A DNA stretch of 64,000 bases from Candidatus Aminicenantes bacterium (GTDB taxonomy: Bacteria > Acidobacteriota > Aminicenantia > Aminicenantales > Aminicenantaceae): NCBI GenBank assembly GCA_021162615.1, contig JAGGYH010000100.1, forward strand, positions 6,065-70,064. The letters run 5' to 3'. This document shows positions 51,336 to 60,002 of the stretch, in pieces. Both the position numbers and the translations under genes were made by a program. The notes below the pieces were generated by a model. That model had not been told where the DNA came from, made no database searches, and saw only the letters and a list, made by a program, of their open reading frames with translations. Each line of letters opens with the position of its first letter. Within the stretch, counting starts at the first letter, position 1.

Positions 51336-52997
51336 TTATTGGAAAACATCAATCATTCGGGCTAAGACAGCTTTTCCTCTATAATCAGGAAGAAGGATTG
51401 GAGCTCTTCTATCAGTTTTTATTCCAGCATCCTTGAGCTGTTTTATGTATTTTTTGGTGTGTTCCAGAGTTAGCTTTAGAGTGGTATTGTTGTTTTTAAC
51501 ATATTCTGCCGTAGATATCCCCGCTCTTCGTCCAAAGACCATGGTATCAAGAGTTGAATTCCCCATGAGTCTGTTTTTGCCGTGCACGCCTCCGGAGACT
51601 TCACCGGCTACCCAGAGGCCTTCAACACTTGTTTTGCCCCATGGATCTGTCTCGACTCCTCCGTTCTGGTAATGGAGAGTAGGAAAGACCAGAACAGGGT
51701 CTTTTCTAATGTCGATGTCAAACCTGTTGTACATTCTTCTCATTCCAGGGAAAGCCTTATCTATGTATCCGTCTCCGTTTTTAATTTCGATAAGGGGAGT
51801 GTCCAGCCAGATACCCCTTAGTCCTGTAGGAGTGGTGATTCCTTTCTCTTTAACATAACATTCTTTAATGAATGAAGAAGCCTCAACATCTCGCGGTTCA
51901 AGAGGAAATACAAAAGCTTCTCCGTCTTTGTTAACGGGCTGAGCCCCTGAACTCCTGAGCTTTTCTGTGAGAAGATAGCCAACGATTTGTATAGGATAGG
52001 CAGCACCGGTGGGGTGATACTGGACTGTATCTATGTCTCTCAGCTTAGCGCCGACGTGGTATGCCAGAACAACTCCATCACAGGTGGCGCCATAATGATT
52101 GGTTGTGGGAAAACCTCTGATATGAAGTCTTCCAAAGCCGCCTGTGGCCAAAATGGTGGCTTTGGATTTGACTATTTTATATTCTCCTGTTTCAATATTC
52201 CAGAGAACAGCGCCCGTGACTCTTCCTTTGCCATTTGTGAGCAGCTCAACCGTAGGATAATGTTCGATACAGGGGATTTCTCTGTTTCGAAATTCGTCTC
52301 TTATGACTCTAAACTCCTCAAGCCCAGTGTAGTCTCTGCAGGAATGAAGTCTTCTTACGGAAGTTCCTCCTCCCCATTTCTCAACAAAATCTCCGTTTTC
52401 TTCGCGGTCGATAATAGCTCCCAGTTTTAAAAGCCACTGAATGATAAAAGGGGCATCATTGACCAAGGCATTGAGAACATCTGGCTTGTTAGCATAATGC
52501 CCTCCGCCAATGGTGTCTAGATAATGGCGGAACAGAGAATCATTAGGTCTATCCGCGGCTTGAGTTCCTCCCTCAGCCATGATTGAATTGGCATCACCGT
52601 GTCTTAATTTATTGGTGAGAAGGATATCTTTGGTTTTAACACCGCTTTCATTAGCCCAAATTGCAGCAGTGGTTCCTGCGAGTCCTCCGCCGATTATAAG
52701 GATTTCAGTGCTGAAATCGATGTTGGAAAGATTAACATCTTTTTCTTCGATAAGAGGATAGGCTTCAAGCAAATCCAATACCTCAATAGGGCCGACGTCT
52801 CCTTTATTGGGCCCAATGGATAATTTTCTTTTTCCACCTGGAGCAAAGTCCGGATGAAGTTGGAGCACTTCCTTTTGTTCTTCCGGAGTGAATGCTGGGG
52901 GAGTGTAGTCTTTTCTCTTCATCCTGGTTTCTTCGACCTTTTTTATAGACTTACGCATATATTCCGGGTACCCACCGATAAGTTTCATTTCAGCCAT
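51336..52997 (-). CDS. FAD flavoprotein of the succinate dehydrogenase / fumarate reductase / thiol:fumarate reductase (FrdA/TfrA-like) superfamily with a ~95-aa N-terminal extension
   Basis: ATG 52997 sits behind an AAGGAG SD. Dinucleotide fold ILIIGGGLAGTTAA, then MAEGG, QYHPTG and GLWVAGEVSGGVHGKNRLMGNSTLD. Confidence 0.7.
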   Translation of the reverse strand: MAEMKLIGGYPEYMRKSIKKVEETRMKRKDYTPPAFTPEEQKEVLQLHPDFAPGGKRKLSIGPNKGDVGPIEVLDLLEAYPLIEEKDVNLSNIDFSTEILIIGGGLAGTTAAIWANESGVKTKDILLTNKLRHGDANSIMAEGGTQAADRPNDSLFRHYLDTIGGGHYANKPDVLNALVNDAPFIIQWLLKLGAIIDREENGDFVEKWGGGTSVRRLHSCRDYTGLEEFRVIRDEFRNREIPCIEHYPTVELLTNGKGRVTGAVLWNIETGEYKIVKSKATILATGGFGRLHIRGFPTTNHYGATCDGVVLAYHVGAKLRDIDTVQYHPTGAAYPIQIVGYLLTEKLRSSGAQPVNKDGEAFVFPLEPRDVEASSFIKECYVKEKGITTPTGLRGIWLDTPLIEIKNGDGYIDKAFPGMRRMYNRFDIDIRKDPVLVFPTLHYQNGGVETDPWGKTSVEGLWVAGEVSGGVHGKNRLMGNSTLDTMVFGRRAGISTAEYVKNNNTTLKLTLEHTKKYIKQLKDAGIKTDRRAPILLPDYRGKAVLARMIDVFQ

Positions 52998-53013
52998 TTT
53001 TTTCTCCTTATTG

Positions 53014-53769
53014 CTAGTCTGATTCCCTTTCTCTTTCAGCATATAGCTTTACGAGTTCTTTTTTGCTAGCTTTCATAATTTTTTCCATCTCTTTATTGAA
53101 TTTGCCCATGTCTATTTCTTTGACTCTTTTTTTGAGATAATCGGGCTCTGGAAATTCATATCGCCCGTACATTCTTCTTGCCAACTGGGCGATGTGATAT
53201 TGGACTAACTCTGAAGGACATCTTGCTGCACAGAGTCCGCACTGGATGCAGTCAAAAGATTCTTCAGCCGCTTTTTTAAAGTCTCCTTTTAGGGCGGCCT
53301 GAACATAATCCATGACTTCCAGATCTTGAGGACATGCCTTAGTACAGGTATTACAGGAGACACAACGGGCAATTTCTGGATAGTGTTTAAGAATAGCATT
53401 GACATCATAGCTTTCTTTTGAAATATCATAAATAGCTTTTTCTGCAGGGACAAAAGGTATTTGGACCAGATACATCCCATCCTCAACTCTTGTTTGACAG
53501 GCCATACCTGTCTGCAGTTTATAGTCACCTTTTTTTCTATATATTGTAGAGCAAGCTCCACAAAAGCCCTGTCTGCATCCCACTCCTCTCACAAATTTGT
53601 ATCCGGCAAATTCCATGGCCGTTAGGATGGTGAGGTCAGCCGGGACTTCATAGGCTCTCCCCATTACATAAATGGTCACCCAATGCTCAATATCTTTAGC
53701 ATCAACACCTGTGGTTACGGATTTAGCTGAGTCAGCGATTCTGTCCATTATATTCATTTTCTTGTTCAT
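53014..53769 (-). CDS. iron-sulfur subunit, SdhB/FrdB-like (2Fe-2S plus two cubane-type cluster motifs)
   Basis: CRQGFCGACS...C, CVSCNTCTKACP and CIQCGLCAARCP. ATG 53769 sits behind a GGAGGA SD. Confidence 0.7.
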   Translation of the reverse strand: MNKKMNIMDRIADSAKSVTTGVDAKDIEHWVTIYVMGRAYEVPADLTILTAMEFAGYKFVRGVGCRQGFCGACSTIYRKKGDYKLQTGMACQTRVEDGMYLVQIPFVPAEKAIYDISKESYDVNAILKHYPEIARCVSCNTCTKACPQDLEVMDYVQAALKGDFKKAAEESFDCIQCGLCAARCPSELVQYHIAQLARRMYGRYEFPEPDYLKKRVKEIDMGKFNKEMEKIMKASKKELVKLYAERERESD

Positions 53770-53790
53770 ATAATCCTCCATTTTTTTGGG

Positions 53791-58665: not shown

Positions 58666-58672
58666 TTGTACC

Positions 58673-59551
58673 TCAAATTAATCCTTTTTCCTTTAAAATA
58701 GGGTTGGGATCTATGTAATGAAGATCTAACCTCAAACTTTTATTGGCACAGCCGAGAGCGATGGCTAAAAGCTGTGTGAAGTAGAGAACAGGGATATTTT
58801 TGAATTCTGGATAAATTTGACGGGTCTTTTTCTGACGCTGATCAAGGTTGAACACACAAAGAGGACAGCTCGCTACAACCACATCCGCTCCTTGAGATTG
58901 AGCTGAAGAAAGAATTTGAAAGGTTCGTTCTGCCACCAATTCTTGATTGTCTACAGTTTGGTAAGCGCCGCAGCATTCTGTTTTATATGGAAATTCAACC
59001 GGCTGAGCTTCCAGTGCAGACATGAGGTTATCCATGGAATTTGGATTTTCCATGTCATCAAAGCCAATATTTTTGGGTCGGACCAACATGCAGCCATAAT
59101 AACTGGCTACTTTTAATCCTTTAAGTGGCTTTTTTACTTTTTTGGCTATGTTCTCGAGCTTGATGTCGTTCTGGAGAATTTCCAGAAGATGGAGCACTTC
59201 TACATCTCCCTCATATTTGATTTTTTCCCGATACATGAAATCATTGATTTTTTGTAGGTCTTCGGGATTGTCTTTGACTCGTTGATTGGCTCTTTTCAAG
59301 GTGTTGTAACACATGGCACAGAGAGTCATGACTTTGTTATTGTTTTGTTCTTTGACACGAATGAGATTTCGGATAGGGGCCACATGATGGATAAGGTCGT
59401 CAGTGGATAGGGAGAAAACCGTACCGCAGCAGTTCCATCGGGGCAGCTCTTCAACCCCCACATCAAGCTTTTTTAAAGAACATAAAGCTGAATCTTCGAA
59501 ATTTTTGGCGTGATTCTTGAGTGTGCATCCAGGGTAATAAGACAGTTTCAT
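58673..59551 (-). CDS. hdrB: heterodisulfide reductase subunit B-like protein (two CCG domains)
   Basis: YYPGC...NCCGT and SYYGC...ECCGAY duplicated CCG motifs. 292 aa. Confidence 0.8.
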   Translation of the reverse strand: MKLSYYPGCTLKNHAKNFEDSALCSLKKLDVGVEELPRWNCCGTVFSLSTDDLIHHVAPIRNLIRVKEQNNNKVMTLCAMCYNTLKRANQRVKDNPEDLQKINDFMYREKIKYEGDVEVLHLLEILQNDIKLENIAKKVKKPLKGLKVASYYGCMLVRPKNIGFDDMENPNSMDNLMSALEAQPVEFPYKTECCGAYQTVDNQELVAERTFQILSSAQSQGADVVVASCPLCVFNLDQRQKKTRQIYPEFKNIPVLYFTQLLAIALGCANKSLRLDLHYIDPNPILKEKGLI

Positions 59552-59594
59552 CTCTATGATTCCTTTGTAGATAATTTTGTGATCTCATAGATAT

Positions 59595-60002
59595 TTACGA
59601 GGTCGTTTTTCTAAAATTGCCCACTAAAGCAATGGGAGGAAGTTCTGACTTTTCTTTGGTGGAGAGCTTGTTGATATCCACATGATCTTTCCGCTGGCGA
59701 AGCAATACCTGTCTTAAGGCTTCCATGACTTCAGCGATATTAATCCCTTTAGGACAGCGGACATTGCAGGTTAAGCAGGATGCACAAATCCACATGGTAT
59801 TGGAATTTATCAGCTCGTCTTTAAGGCCCAATTGGGCATAACGGATGACTTGATTAGGCGGAAGATCCATCTGAGAAATGGCTGGACAGCCTGCAGAGCA
59901 TTTGCCGCATTGATAGCAGGCAAGCAGATTTTGACCGCTTAATTCTTCCACTTTGGCAACAAAAGGACTTCTGATTTTTTGGCGGGAAATGATGGTTTTC
60001 AT
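59595..60002 (-). CDS. hdrC: heterodisulfide reductase subunit C-like 2x[4Fe-4S] protein
   Basis: CYQCGKCSAGCP and CASCLTCNVRCP. 135 aa. Confidence 0.75.
   Translation of the reverse strand: MKTIISRQKIRSPFVAKVEELSGQNLLACYQCGKCSAGCPAISQMDLPPNQVIRYAQLGLKDELINSNTMWICASCLTCNVRCPKGINIAEVMEALRQVLLRQRKDHVDINKLSTKEKSELPPIALVGNFRKTTS

What the first reader, a model, noticed from the sequence alone, without database searches (positions are those of the whole stretch)
51336..60002. Nine-gene cluster embedding a four-subunit 2-oxoacid:ferredoxin oxidoreductase between HdrCB and HdrA plus a fumarate-reductase-like AB pair
The minus-strand order is hdrC-like (59595-60002), hdrB-like (58673-59551), OFOR delta, alpha, beta, gamma (55838-58665), hdrA-like (53791-55749), FrdB/SdhB-like FeS protein (53014-53769) and FrdA/TfrA-like flavoprotein (51336-52997). 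Gaps are tiny or the genes overlap: 4-nt overlaps between alpha/beta/gamma, a 32-nt overlap between delta/alpha, and 17-21 nt elsewhere. A single operon is therefore likely.
The delta-alpha-beta-gamma order matches Helicobacter oorDABC (2-oxoglutarate) rather than porCDAB.
HdrA-type flavoproteins are the bifurcating FAD site in the Mvh-Hdr complex, and HdrB CCG domains reduce disulfides in methanogens. Methanogen thiol:fumarate reductase TfrB fuses FrdB-like and CCG domains.
My inference is a soluble Hdr-type electron-bifurcating or confurcating complex that couples the ferredoxin-linked 2-oxoacid step to the fumarate/succinate couple. Those are two adjacent steps of a reductive or branched TCA cycle. 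No membrane anchor subunit and no mvhD/hydrogenase partner are present. The flavoprotein also has an unexplained ~95-aa N-terminal extension.
Basis: inference. Interest (0 to 1): 0.6.

Follow-up and report, generated by a model that had tools for sequence, protein, structure and literature searches.

The report
Hdr-wired fumarate reductase plus oxoglutarate oxidoreductase operon
An uncultured Aminicenantes bacterium from hydrothermal-vent samples keeps a membrane-free fumarate reductase, a heterodisulfide-reductase-type electron-splitting module and a ferredoxin-dependent 2-oxoglutarate enzyme in one operon; this layout was already described, but never tested biochemically, in tubeworm symbionts in 2019, and this copy has lost its electron-input genes.

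Summary

The linkage is not chance:
- The flavoprotein occurs in 79 of 121 genomes of the same order.
- 27 of 30 fetched loci hold the Kor genes inside the cluster.
- The Hdr/FeS/flavoprotein core recurs in about ten bacterial phyla, Bathyarchaeota and cultured Christensenella. It often lies beside fumarase, sucCD and mdh.

The flavoprotein keeps the FrdA dicarboxylate site. It has Asn at the covalent-FAD histidine and lacks NadB's Glu121. A true nadB lies elsewhere in the genome.

Best reading: a soluble Hdr-coupled fumarate reductase plus 2-oxoglutarate:ferredoxin oxidoreductase, serving the fumarate-to-2-oxoglutarate stretch of a reductive or branched TCA cycle.

The core order hdrCB-korDABC-hdrA and the same idea were published for tubeworm symbionts (PMC6315080). 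A Flx-Hdr-linked fumarate reductase was proposed for P. thermosuccinogenes (PMC7282089). This scan has also met the cluster repeatedly on other DNA.

This copy has no flxABC, and a clean deletion removed mvhD. The electron donor, and whether bifurcation still occurs, are therefore open. No biochemistry exists.

The parts
59595..60002 (-). hdrC-like, 135 aa, two CX2CX2CX3CP motifs (2x[4Fe-4S])
   Evidence: TIGR03290 scores 81 bits, below its cut-off of 160.
58673..59551 (-). hdrB-like, 292 aa, two CCG domains with all 10 Cys of the non-cubane cluster motifs
   Evidence: It scores 155 bits to HdrB 7bkb_B. It also scores 183 bits to the SdhE (CCG) subunit model of type-E fumarate reductases.
58390..58665 (-). 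OFOR delta subunit (korD/oorD-like 2x[4Fe-4S] ferredoxin)
   Evidence: Best model is OGOR_delta at 71.7 bits, below its cut-off of 125.
57249..58421 (-). OFOR alpha subunit (korA-like)
   Evidence: NF006412 scores 569 bits, above its cut-off of 411. The closest solved structures are 2-keto acid and 2-oxoglutarate enzymes. PFOR scores only 58 bits.
56386..57252 (-). OFOR beta subunit (TPP-binding, korB-like)
   Evidence: Best model is the 2-oxoglutarate:Fd oxidoreductase beta subunit at 231 bits, below its cut-off of 364.
55838..56389 (-). OFOR gamma subunit (korG/korC/oorC-like)
53791..55749 (-). hdrA, 652 aa, full-length bifurcating-type HdrA without an MvhD domain
   Evidence: It aligns at residues 3-646 with residues 4-647 of M. 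wolfeii HdrA.
53770..53790 (-). Scar of a clean mvhD deletion of about 430 bp. The mvhD ATG now stands in frame ahead of the FeS gene.
   Evidence: This is an alignment with L018, a relative at about 94% identity that still has mvhD between hdrA and the FeS gene.
53014..53769 (-). FrdB/TfrB-N-like FeS subunit: [2Fe-2S] motif CX4CX2C...C plus two complete CX2CX2CX3CP motifs, no CCG domain, and a helical C-terminal tail of about 60 aa
51336..52997 (-). FrdA-like flavoprotein, 553 aa: conserved 95-aa N-terminal extension, non-covalent FAD (Asn at the FrdA His44 position), intact dicarboxylate site, truncated C-terminal domain
   Evidence: The top Foldseek hit is E. coli FrdA 1kf6_A, E 1.5e-26.
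60053..60081 (-). Promoter-like site (TTCACT-17-TAAAAT) in the 120-nt gap upstream of hdrC
   Evidence: This is a consensus match only.

Best explanation
The operon encodes a cytoplasmic, quinone-independent fumarate reductase. Its catalytic pair, the FeS subunit and the non-covalent-FAD flavoprotein, is wired to HdrC/HdrB and through them to the flavin of HdrA. A four-subunit 2-oxoglutarate-type ferredoxin oxidoreductase (KorDABG) is co-expressed with it. Together they carry out the two redox steps that the genome's other TCA genes lack: fumarate to succinate, and succinyl-CoA plus CO2 to 2-oxoglutarate.

In the complete form of this system, seen in relatives, NADH (via FlxABC-MvhD) or H2 (via MvhAG-MvhD) feeds HdrA. 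HdrA splits the electron pair. One electron path runs downhill through HdrCB, the FeS subunit and the flavoprotein to fumarate (about +30 mV). The other path runs uphill to ferredoxin (about -500 mV), which Kor uses for reductive carboxylation. One fumarate reduced yields the one reduced ferredoxin needed to carboxylate the succinyl-CoA made from it.

In this window the donor module and its MvhD adaptor are missing. The enzyme must therefore be fed in trans (for example by the hdrA-mvhDGA locus on contig C19) or by reduced ferredoxin.

Shown: gene identities, conserved linkage, active-site residues and genomic context. Inferred: the physical complex, the direction of electron flow and bifurcation.
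For: Linkage:
- The FeS and flavoprotein genes are adjacent, and nearly always lie beside hdrA(-mvhD)-hdrC-hdrB, in more than 70 loci. The taxa are Aminicenantes, WOR-3, Cloacimonadota, Eisenbacteria, Sumerlaeota, Phycisphaerae, Bipolaricaulota, Bathyarchaeota and Christensenella.
- 79 of 121 genomes of the order carry the flavoprotein.
- 27 of 30 fetched loci hold korDABG in the cluster, in four arrangements.

Donor modules in cis in relatives:
- Flx-like NAD-binding and FeS proteins, or MvhG/MvhA.

Fumarate link:
- Class I fumarase lies directly after kor in 8 of 8 pattern-D loci. It also lies next to the cluster in Bathyarchaeota, Phycisphaerae, Bipolaricaulota and others.
- sucCD and mdh flank the cluster in several phyla.

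Active site:
- The equivalents of FrdA His232, Thr244/Glu245, Arg287, His355 and Arg390 are invariant.
- The His44 position is Asn.
- The NadB Glu121 position is W, L, A or H.
- The fold is closest to E. coli FrdA.

Genome context:
- nadB-nadC lie elsewhere, and no canonical sdhA/frdA is found.
- idh-mdh-fumB-sucCD lie on C63 and fumA-alpha on C84.
- PFOR, VOR-type and IOR-type enzymes lie elsewhere, which leaves this OFOR as the Kor candidate.
- A candidate citryl-CoA synthetase/lyase cluster lies on C144.

Other:
- HdrA is full length and methanogen-like. HdrB keeps all 10 cluster cysteines.
- HdrCB identity tracks the FeS/flavoprotein type rather than Kor/HdrA. This fits direct contact between HdrCB and the reductase pair.

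Literature:
- The Escarpia symbiont lists frdB, frdA, hdrC, hdrB, korD, korA, korB, korC, hdrA and flxDCBA in that order. All are expressed, and the same hypothesis is stated (PMC6315080).
- P. thermosuccinogenes has a 'succinate operon' of fumarase, Flx-Hdr and fumarate reductase (PMC7282089).
Against: - No member of this enzyme family has been purified or assayed, as far as the papers I could read show.
- This operon has no Flx or Mvh genes and has lost mvhD, so the mid-potential donor that bifurcation requires is not evident.
- All subunit scores fall below the curated equivalog cut-offs for TfrA, SdhA/FrdA, HdrA, HdrB, HdrC and the 2-oxoglutarate-specific Kor models. Substrates are therefore inferred.
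- The OFOR linkage is facultative. It is absent within 10 kb in Bathyarchaeota and Christensenella.
- No RNA data exist for this organism.
Confidence: 0.6

Rival explanations
1. Stripped-down, non-bifurcating enzyme. Without MvhD or Flx, HdrA only relays low-potential electrons. They come from reduced ferredoxin, or directly from KorD during 2-oxoglutarate oxidation. They pass through HdrCB and the FeS subunit to fumarate. The operon would then be a ferredoxin:fumarate oxidoreductase, or effectively a 2-oxoglutarate:fumarate oxidoreductase. That would suit co-fermentation of glutamate- and aspartate-derived carbon to succinate and succinyl-CoA.
For: - mvhD was deleted cleanly, yet all nine ORFs stay intact in three genomes at 94% identity or more: the window, L013/L111 and L045.
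- kor sits between hdrB and hdrA in several phyla.
- The genome has PFOR, VOR-type and IOR-type ferredoxin reducers and an Rnf complex.
- From my own knowledge: M. acetivorans HdrA2B2C2 can use reduced ferredoxin for heterodisulfide reduction (paper listed, not read).
Against: - It would waste about 500 mV per electron.
- Close relatives at 94% identity keep mvhD. Most of the order keeps mvhD with or without flx, so the donor-less state is recent and derived.
- Other mvhD genes exist in the genome and could serve in trans.
Confidence: 0.2
2. Co-regulated but physically separate enzymes. Kor works with free ferredoxin. Hdr plus the Frd-like pair is an independent complex. The interspersed gene order reflects only shared regulation of TCA steps.
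For: - The OFOR position varies: inside the hdr genes, after the flavoprotein, or absent.
- Kor has its own delta ferredoxin subunit, as stand-alone Kor/Oor enzymes do.
Against: - The same interspersed order hdrCB-korDABG-hdrA is kept in Aminicenantes and in gammaproteobacterial symbionts, despite low sequence identity.
- The kor genes overlap by 4 nt and korD starts 7 nt after hdrB, but an 88-nt gap separates korG from hdrA.
Confidence: 0.3
3. Oxidative direction. The complex is a confurcating succinate dehydrogenase. It combines electrons from succinate and from Kor-reduced ferredoxin to make NADH or H2, which would allow an oxidative TCA cycle without quinones.
For: - Citrate synthase, aconitase and IDH are present.
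- Aminicenantes are usually read as heterotrophs (my own knowledge).
- Flavin-based bifurcating enzymes are reversible in principle.
Against: - From established biochemistry: non-covalent FAD (Asn at the His44 position) goes with fumarate reduction, and E. coli FrdA His44 mutants lose succinate oxidation.
- The mean potential of succinate and ferredoxin is about -235 mV. That lies above NAD+/NADH (-320 mV) and H+/H2 (-414 mV), so the reaction is uphill by about 33 kJ or more per 4 electrons.
Confidence: 0.07
4. The flavoprotein acts on a substrate other than fumarate, such as L-aspartate, another enoate or a sulfur compound (AprA-like). In that case the TCA reading is wrong.
For: - Scores to TfrA, SdhA/FrdA and NadB models are similar and all far below their cut-offs: 298, 254 and 248 bits.
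- The protein has a unique N-terminal extension and a truncated C-terminal domain.
- The residue at the NadB Glu121 position varies within the family.
Against: - All dicarboxylate-binding and proton-donor residues are invariant in 31 family members.
- There is no Glu at the NadB-specific position.
- A true nadB sits next to nadC elsewhere in the genome.
- Fumarase, sucCD and mdh are neighbours in many phyla.
Confidence: 0.07

Closest known systems
rTCA-associated tfrAB/frdBA-hdrCB-korDABC-hdrA-flxDCBA cluster of tubeworm symbionts (Escarpia laminata symbiont, Ca. Endoriftia) and Thioflavicoccus mobilis (Rubin-Blum et al. 2019, PMC6315080)
   Same: - It has the same interspersed core order, hdrC-hdrB-korD-korA-korB-korC(gamma)-hdrA.
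- It has an anchor-less two-subunit Frd-like pair in the same cluster.
- The same hypothesis is stated: electrons pass from an Hdr module to OGOR and fumarate reductase.
- Aminicenantes relatives with flxCBA-mvhD (pattern C) match it almost gene for gene.
   Different: - This window has no flxABC and no mvhD/flxD.
- Here the Frd-like pair lies at the 3' end rather than the 5' end.
- acl and idh are not adjacent here. Candidate ccs/ccl and idh genes lie on other contigs.
- I could not compare the sequences directly, because no symbiont sequence was in reach.
'Succinate operon' of Pseudoclostridium thermosuccinogenes: fumarase + FlxABCD-HdrABC + two-subunit 'novel fumarate reductase' (Koendjbiharie et al. 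2020, PMC7282089; 2019 preprint not held)
   Same: - A two-gene fumarate reductase lies next to a seven-gene Flx-Hdr module and fumarase.
- It is proposed to couple fumarate reduction to ferredoxin reduction.
- The Christensenella loci found here (L048-L053) have the layout hdrB-hdrC-hdrA-mvhD, then three Flx-type genes, then FeS-flavoprotein.
   Different: - That operon has no OFOR, and NADH is the stated donor.
- Sequence identity to the P. thermosuccinogenes proteins was not tested here.
- The window lacks both Flx and fumarase in cis.
Thiol:fumarate reductase TfrAB of Methanothermobacter (Heim et al. 1998, cited in PMC6315080)
   Same: - It is soluble, independent of quinones and lacks a membrane anchor.
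- TfrA is the best-scoring curated model for the flavoprotein (298 bits).
- TfrB is roughly a [2Fe-2S] domain plus an HdrC-like dicluster plus HdrB-like CCG domains. These are the parts found here on three separate proteins.
- From my own knowledge: it works with Kor in a reductive TCA branch.
   Different: - The score is far below the TfrA cut-off (298 against 718).
- The FeS subunit here has no CCG domain, so it has no thiol-oxidising site of its own.
- An HdrA is present here.
- The flavoprotein has a 95-aa N-terminal extension and a shortened C-terminal domain.
MvhADG-HdrABC and FlxABCD-HdrABC flavin-based electron-bifurcating complexes
   Same: - HdrA is full length, with 744 bits to 5odc_A.
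- HdrB has both non-cubane cluster motifs.
- HdrC has two [4Fe-4S] motifs.
   Different: - There is no MvhD, hydrogenase or Flx in cis.
- The presumed high-potential acceptor is fumarate, reached through an added FeS/flavoprotein pair. It is not a heterodisulfide or DsrC.
Type E succinate:quinone oxidoreductase / methylmenaquinol:fumarate reductase (SdhABE) and the five-subunit soluble NADH-fumarate reductase of Hydrogenobacter thermophilus
   Same: A CCG-domain (HdrB-like) subunit is attached to an Sdh/Frd core. The window's HdrB scores 183 bits to the SdhE model.
   Different: - Those enzymes have a canonical SdhA/SdhB.
- This one has no quinone site, and it has HdrA plus Kor.
- The Hydrogenobacter comparison rests on my memory of Miura et al. 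2008 and was not tested.

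Membership tests
Hdr-Kor-Frd(Tfr) cluster of the Rubin-Blum 2019 type | korDABC interspersed between hdrCB and hdrA on one strand | tested here: met
.
Hdr-Kor-Frd(Tfr) cluster of the Rubin-Blum 2019 type | Anchor-less two-subunit Frd-like pair in the same cluster | tested here: met
Hdr-Kor-Frd(Tfr) cluster of the Rubin-Blum 2019 type | flxABCD (NADH-oxidising donor module with the MvhD-like FlxD) in the cluster | tested here: not met
   - No Flx or MvhD homologue lies on this contig stretch.
- An mvhD deletion scar is present.
- Relatives have these genes.
Hdr-Kor-Frd(Tfr) cluster of the Rubin-Blum 2019 type | Embedded among rTCA genes (citrate cleavage, idh) | tested here: inconclusive
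   - These genes are not adjacent to the cluster.
- A candidate ccsAB-ccl-acn-idh cluster lies on C144, and idh-mdh-fumB-sucCD on C63.
Hdr-Kor-Frd(Tfr) cluster of the Rubin-Blum 2019 type | Genes expressed together | not testable with these tools
   No RNA run holds this DNA.
Thiol:fumarate reductase TfrAB | Flavoprotein reaches the TfrA equivalog score | tested here: not met
   298 bits against a cut-off of 718.
Thiol:fumarate reductase TfrAB | FeS subunit carries fused CCG (thiol-oxidising) domains | tested here: not met
   The FeS protein has no PF02754 hit. The CCG domains are on the separate HdrB.
Quinol:fumarate reductase / succinate:quinone reductase (FrdABCD, SdhABCD) | Histidine for covalent 8-alpha-FAD linkage | tested here: not met
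   Asn at the FrdA His44 position in all five family members aligned; that Asn (N137) is invariant in all 31 members of alignment A4.
Quinol:fumarate reductase / succinate:quinone reductase (FrdABCD, SdhABCD) | Membrane anchor subunits | tested here: not met
   No 19-residue window has a Kyte-Doolittle mean above 1.6 in any of the nine proteins.
Quinol:fumarate reductase / succinate:quinone reductase (FrdABCD, SdhABCD) | Dicarboxylate-binding and proton-shuttle residues (FrdA H232, T244/E245, R287, H355, R390) | tested here: met
   Invariant in alignments A1 and A4.
Quinol:fumarate reductase / succinate:quinone reductase (FrdABCD, SdhABCD) | Three-Cys motif of the [3Fe-4S] cluster in the FeS subunit | tested here: not met
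   Both dicluster motifs are complete CX2CX2CX3CP.
L-aspartate oxidase NadB | Equivalog score, Glu121 and nadA/nadC context | tested here: not met
   - 248 bits against a cut-off of 453.
- The Glu121 position is W, L, A or H.
- The true nadB, at 471 bits, lies next to nadC on C117.
HdrABC heterodisulfide reductase | Full-length HdrA, HdrB with two CX(31-39)CCX(35-36)CXXC-type motifs, HdrC with two [4Fe-4S] motifs | tested here: met
   NCBIfam equivalog cut-offs are not reached: 842 of 1100, 188 of 345 and 81 of 160.
HdrABC heterodisulfide reductase | Reduces a heterodisulfide (CoM-S-S-CoB or DsrC) | not testable with these tools
   No assay is possible. I infer that the role of HdrB here is electron relay to the Frd pair.
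2-oxoglutarate:ferredoxin oxidoreductase (KorABCD/OorDABC) | Four subunits, delta-alpha-beta-gamma order, Kor-type alpha and beta | tested here: met
   - The alpha subunit scores 569 bits against a cut-off of 411 for NF006412.
- The delta subunit is closest to OGOR_delta and OorD.
- The nearest solved structures are 2-keto acid and 2-oxoglutarate enzymes.
2-oxoglutarate:ferredoxin oxidoreductase (KorABCD/OorDABC) | Specificity for 2-oxoglutarate | tested here: inconclusive
   - The 2-oxoglutarate-specific models score below their cut-offs: 399 of 579 and 231 of 364.
- The assignment rests on elimination, since PFOR, VOR-type and IOR-type enzymes lie elsewhere, and on sucCD and fumarase neighbours in relatives.

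The most novel reading that the evidence does not exclude
The mvhD- and flx-less form is not a decayed bifurcating enzyme. It would be a distinct working enzyme in which Kor hands low-potential electrons straight into HdrA and on to fumarate. That makes it a soluble 2-oxoglutarate:fumarate (or ferredoxin:fumarate) oxidoreductase. Alternatively, it recruits the orphan hdrA-mvhDGA hydrogenase module of contig C19 in trans. Either way, the conserved kor-within-hdr order would reflect a true Kor-Hdr-Frd supercomplex.
Probability: 0.2. Interest if true: 0.65.

Novelty: new variant of a known kind. Interest (0 to 1): 0.4.

Why it matters
If the proposed mechanism holds, this widespread module would be an untested class of flavin-based bifurcating enzyme. 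It would use the strongly exergonic fumarate reduction to make the low-potential ferredoxin that 2-oxoglutarate synthase needs, in 1:1 stoichiometry along the same carbon path.

That would explain how strict anaerobes without quinone-linked fumarate reductases run the reductive TCA branch or the whole rTCA cycle.

The present genome adds three things:
- A natural donor-less variant, made by a recent clean loss of mvhD.
- Evidence that the FeS/flavoprotein pair is swapped as a unit, and that HdrCB diverges with it.
- A candidate citryl-CoA synthetase/lyase, which hints at a full rTCA cycle in an Aminicenantes bacterium from hydrothermal-vent metagenomes.

It is not a new kind of system. The layout and the idea were published in 2019, and this scan has met them many times.

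Tried and rejected
- **NadB reading:** rejected. The Glu121 position is not Glu, and a true nadB-nadC pair lies elsewhere.
- **Canonical membrane QFR/SQR:** rejected. There is no anchor, no covalent-FAD His and no 3-Cys cluster motif.
- **Strict TfrAB membership:** rejected. The FeS subunit lacks CCG domains, and the score is far below the cut-off.
- **Thiol shuttle between Hdr and a 'thiol:fumarate reductase'** (suggested in PMC6315080): judged less likely, because the Frd-like pair has no thiol-oxidising domain of its own.
- **Co-transcription evidence:** no RNA run holds this DNA. Only relatives' transcripts from salt-lake metatranscriptomes were offered.
- **Koendjbiharie and van Kranenburg 2019 preprint:** not held.
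- **Full phylogeny against TfrA, AprA and soluble Frd clades:** not done. No archaeal TfrA or other named reference sequences were in reach apart from E. coli FrdA, SdhA and NadB. Placement rests on HMM scores, residues and fold.
Identity of kind rests on gene order and domain content.
- **Early guess of a Firmicute host**, from the large SRP RNA: dropped. Relatives at 94% identity or more are labelled Aminicenantes.

Full report
**Observation**

The window carries nine consecutive minus-strand ORFs between 51336 and 60002. Pfam and NCBIfam identify them as follows:
- HdrC: two [4Fe-4S] motifs.
- HdrB: two CCG domains.
- The delta, alpha, beta and gamma subunits of a 2-oxoacid:ferredoxin oxidoreductase.
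- HdrA.
- A protein with a plant-type [2Fe-2S] domain followed by a dicluster domain.
- A FAD_binding_2 flavoprotein.

Gaps and overlaps are 43, 7, -32, -4, -4, 88, 9 and 16 nt. The flavoprotein starts at 52997 behind AAGGAG. The FeS gene starts at 53769 behind GGAGGA.

None of the nine proteins has a transmembrane-grade hydrophobic stretch. Promoter-like and terminator-like matches inside the cluster are not enriched over shuffled sequence. One promoter-like site lies in the 120-nt gap upstream of hdrC.

**Host**

The window lies on contig C106 of a 2.85-Mb, 93%-complete MAG.
- Relatives at 93-96% protein identity are labelled Aminicenantes or Acidobacteriota.
- The DNA is held by many hydrothermal-vent and marine-sediment metagenomes.

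**Is the linkage more than chance?**

Yes.
- The flavoprotein has full-length relatives, N-terminal extension included, at 76-88% identity in WOR-3, Aminicenantes and 'Deltaproteobacteria' MAGs.
- In 44 loci from species-representative genomes, the FeS and flavoprotein genes are always adjacent. They nearly always sit beside hdrA(-mvhD)-hdrC-hdrB. The taxa are Aminicenantes, Bacteroidota-labelled MAGs, Eisenbacteria, WOR-3, Cloacimonadota, Fermentibacteria, Phycisphaerae, Sumerlaeota, Bipolaricaulota, Bathyarchaeota (56-58% identity) and cultured Christensenella (52%).
- Within the window's own order, 79 of 121 genomes have the flavoprotein.
- 27 of 30 loci that I fetched hold korDABG in the cluster. 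Two of the other three are cut by contig ends.

Four arrangements occur in the order:

| Pattern | Gene order | Where seen |
|---|---|---|
| A | hdrCB-korDABG-hdrA-FeS-Flav | this window and two close relatives |
| B | as A, with mvhD after hdrA | several genomes of the order |
| C | as B, with three Flx-type genes after mvhD | many genomes of the order |
| D | hdrCB-hdrA-mvhD-FeS-Flav-korDABG-fumarase | 8 loci fetched |

**Donor modules in relatives**

The genes that fill the gaps in relatives are of two kinds:
- An NAD-binding/DHODB-FeS protein plus two Fer4 proteins, which is the FlxABC type.
- A NiFe hydrogenase small and large subunit, which is the MvhGA type.

The system is therefore modular. 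It has a variable donor (NADH or H2) docked through MvhD, then HdrA, then HdrCB with the FeS/flavoprotein pair. Kor is often present as well.

**What the flavoprotein does**

*Sequence and fold*
- Curated models for TfrA, SdhA/FrdA and NadB all match at 248-298 bits, far below their cut-offs. This is a family of its own.
- I aligned it with E. coli FrdA, SdhA and NadB and with the genome's own NadB. The residues equivalent to FrdA His232, Thr244/Glu245, Arg287, His355 and Arg390 are invariant.
- The covalent-FAD His44 is replaced by Asn.
- The position of NadB Glu121, which contacts the amino group of aspartate, is W, L, A or H.
- The C-terminal helical domain is cut short.
- A 95-aa N-terminal extension without cysteines is conserved across bacteria and archaea.
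- An AlphaFold model (pLDDT 78, with the extension at about 90) is closest to E. coli FrdA. About 450 residues align, and the extension has no counterpart.

*Genome context*
- The genome has a genuine nadB next to nadC on another contig and no canonical sdhA/frdA.

*Neighbours in relatives*
- Class I fumarase follows kor in all eight pattern-D loci. It also flanks the cluster in Bathyarchaeota, Phycisphaerae, Bipolaricaulota and others.
- sucCD and mdh are neighbours in several phyla.
- One Thermotogae-labelled MAG has sucCD, korG, hdrA, mvhDGA, hdrCB, FeS, Flav, korDAB and fumAB in a row.

Together these make fumarate the substrate by far the most likely. From established flavoenzyme biochemistry, non-covalent FAD points to the reductive direction.

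**The other subunits**

- **FeS subunit.** It has the SdhB-like [2Fe-2S] motif and two complete four-Cys motifs, so it has no [3Fe-4S] cluster and no CCG domain.
- **HdrB.** It keeps all ten cysteines of the two non-cubane cluster motifs. It scores as well to the CCG subunit SdhE of type-E fumarate reductases as to HdrB.
- **HdrA.** It aligns end to end with the M. wolfeii HdrA structure at 744 bits.
- **TfrB comparison.** TfrB of methanogens is roughly the sum of the FeS N-terminal domain, HdrC and HdrB (partial matches). HdrCB plus FeS plus Flav therefore looks like a split Tfr attached to HdrA. Because the Frd pair has no thiol site of its own, I think direct electron transfer from HdrCB is more likely than a diffusible thiol shuttle.
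- **OFOR.** The alpha subunit passes the cut-off of the generic 2-oxoacid:acceptor model. It is closest to 2-keto acid and 2-oxoglutarate enzymes among solved structures. The 2-oxoglutarate-specific models are not reached. The genome has a monomeric PFOR, a VorB-type enzyme (next to fumarase alpha) and an IOR-type enzyme elsewhere. That leaves this one as the Kor candidate.

**Genome context**

- Contig C63 carries idh-like, mdh, fumarase beta, sucC and sucD in a row. C84 carries fumarase alpha.
- Citrate synthase, aconitase-family genes and Rnf are present.
- Contig C144 carries a second, sub-threshold sucC/sucD-like pair. It sits next to a citryl-CoA lyase that passes its cut-off, aconitase-family subunits and an IDH-like gene. 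That is the signature of citryl-CoA synthetase/lyase citrate cleavage.

The operon thus supplies exactly the two redox steps missing from the rest of the TCA gene set. A full reductive cycle is conceivable.

**Mechanism**

*Shown:* gene identities, conserved linkage, active-site residues and context.

*Inferred:* in the complete system, NADH or H2 reduces the HdrA flavin. One branch flows through HdrC/HdrB, the FeS subunit and the flavoprotein to fumarate (about +30 mV). The other branch reduces ferredoxin (about -500 mV) for Kor-catalysed carboxylation of succinyl-CoA.

With textbook potentials, the reaction 2 NADH + fumarate + oxidised ferredoxin is exergonic by about 33 kJ/mol. One fumarate yields the one reduced ferredoxin needed one step later on the same carbon skeleton.

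**What is special here**

*Loss of the donor module.* This operon has no flx or mvh genes. An alignment with a 94%-identical relative shows that mvhD was removed by a clean deletion of about 430 bp. The deletion left the mvhD ATG in frame ahead of the FeS gene. Elsewhere the genome has hdrA-mvhD-mvhG-mvhA without hdrBC (C19) and other Flx-like pieces. The donor may therefore act in trans. Alternatively, this variant may run on reduced ferredoxin or on Kor directly, which is the rival reading.

*Swap of the reductase pair.* A genome of the same genus has Kor and HdrA at 89-96% identity to the window. Its FeS and flavoprotein are only 54-55% identical, and its HdrC/HdrB 67/75%. The window's FeS/flavoprotein are closer to WOR-3 (73-77%) than any other gene of the operon is (48-62%). 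The Frd pair was thus replaced in place, and HdrCB diverged with it. That fits direct contact between the two, but it rests on few independent events.

**Comparison with the literature**

- Rubin-Blum et al. 2019 (PMC6315080) described the arrangement in tubeworm symbionts and Thioflavicoccus mobilis. korABCD and 'tfrAB' are interspersed with flxABCD-hdrABC inside the rTCA gene cluster.
- Their expression table lists frdB, frdA, hdrC, hdrB, korD, korA, korB, korC, hdrA, flxD, flxC, flxB and flxA. They proposed a complex that shuttles electrons to OGOR and fumarate reductase.
- Koendjbiharie et al. (PMC7282089, citing a 2019 preprint that I could not read) proposed a Flx-Hdr-coupled, ferredoxin-reducing fumarate reductase in P. 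thermosuccinogenes. Its 'succinate operon' also holds fumarase.
- I found no paper reporting purification or assay.
- This scan has met the cluster type many times on other DNA, with the same conclusion.

**Verdict**

It belongs to a kind that is already published, though biochemically untested. This copy is a reduced variant that has lost its donor adaptor. Interest is moderate.

Noticed in passing
G000 contig C144 (locus L147:1462-8475, minus strand): A sucC-like gene (521 aa) and a sucD-like gene (303 aa), both below the SucCD cut-offs, lie next to a citryl-CoA lyase that passes its cut-off. Aconitase-family large and small subunits and an IDH-like gene follow. This is a candidate citryl-CoA synthetase/lyase citrate-cleavage cluster. 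The true sucCD genes are on C63. Together with the window's operon it hints at a complete reductive TCA cycle in an Aminicenantes MAG.
   Followed up: partly
window 53770-53790, against L018:6561-6994: mvhD was deleted cleanly between hdrA and the FeS gene in this lineage (window, L013/L111, L045). A 94%-identical relative keeps it. The mvhD start codon now extends the FeS ORF by four codons.
   Followed up: yes
window 51336-53769 and 58673-60002, against L130 (G087, same genus) and L009 (WOR-3): The FeS/flavoprotein pair was replaced in place by a xenolog. It is 54-55% identical to the same-genus genome, whose Kor and HdrA are 89-96% identical, and 73-77% identical to WOR-3. HdrC and HdrB diverge with the pair (67% and 75%).
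   Followed up: partly
G000 contig C19:28189-32980: hdrA-mvhD-mvhG-mvhA lie on one strand with no hdrB or hdrC nearby. This could be a hydrogen-oxidising donor module acting in trans.
   Followed up: no
G000 contig C84 (L076:8867-12457): The fumarate hydratase alpha subunit lies directly upstream of a VorB-type three- or four-subunit OFOR. The beta subunit of the same fumarase is on another contig (C63), within idh-mdh-fumB-sucCD.
   Followed up: no
L009:11746-16404, L011:11646-16533, L046, L019: WOR-3 and 'Deltaproteobacteria' versions carry two different OFOR alpha/beta pairs after the flavoprotein, and these share one gamma subunit. In L019, sucCD sit between the flavoprotein and the OFOR genes.
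   Followed up: no
L133:2753-4588 and L133:803-2242: In pattern-D Aminicenantes loci, a 611-aa HEAT-repeat protein and an acetate kinase lie between a NiFe-hydrogenase large-subunit gene and hdrC.
   Followed up: no
window 60123-64000: Upstream on the same strand lie a DUF362-like gene, a radical SAM gene and a 735-aa spermidine-synthase-domain protein. A 120-nt gap with a promoter-like site separates them from hdrC. I did not test whether they are co-transcribed with the cluster.
   Followed up: no
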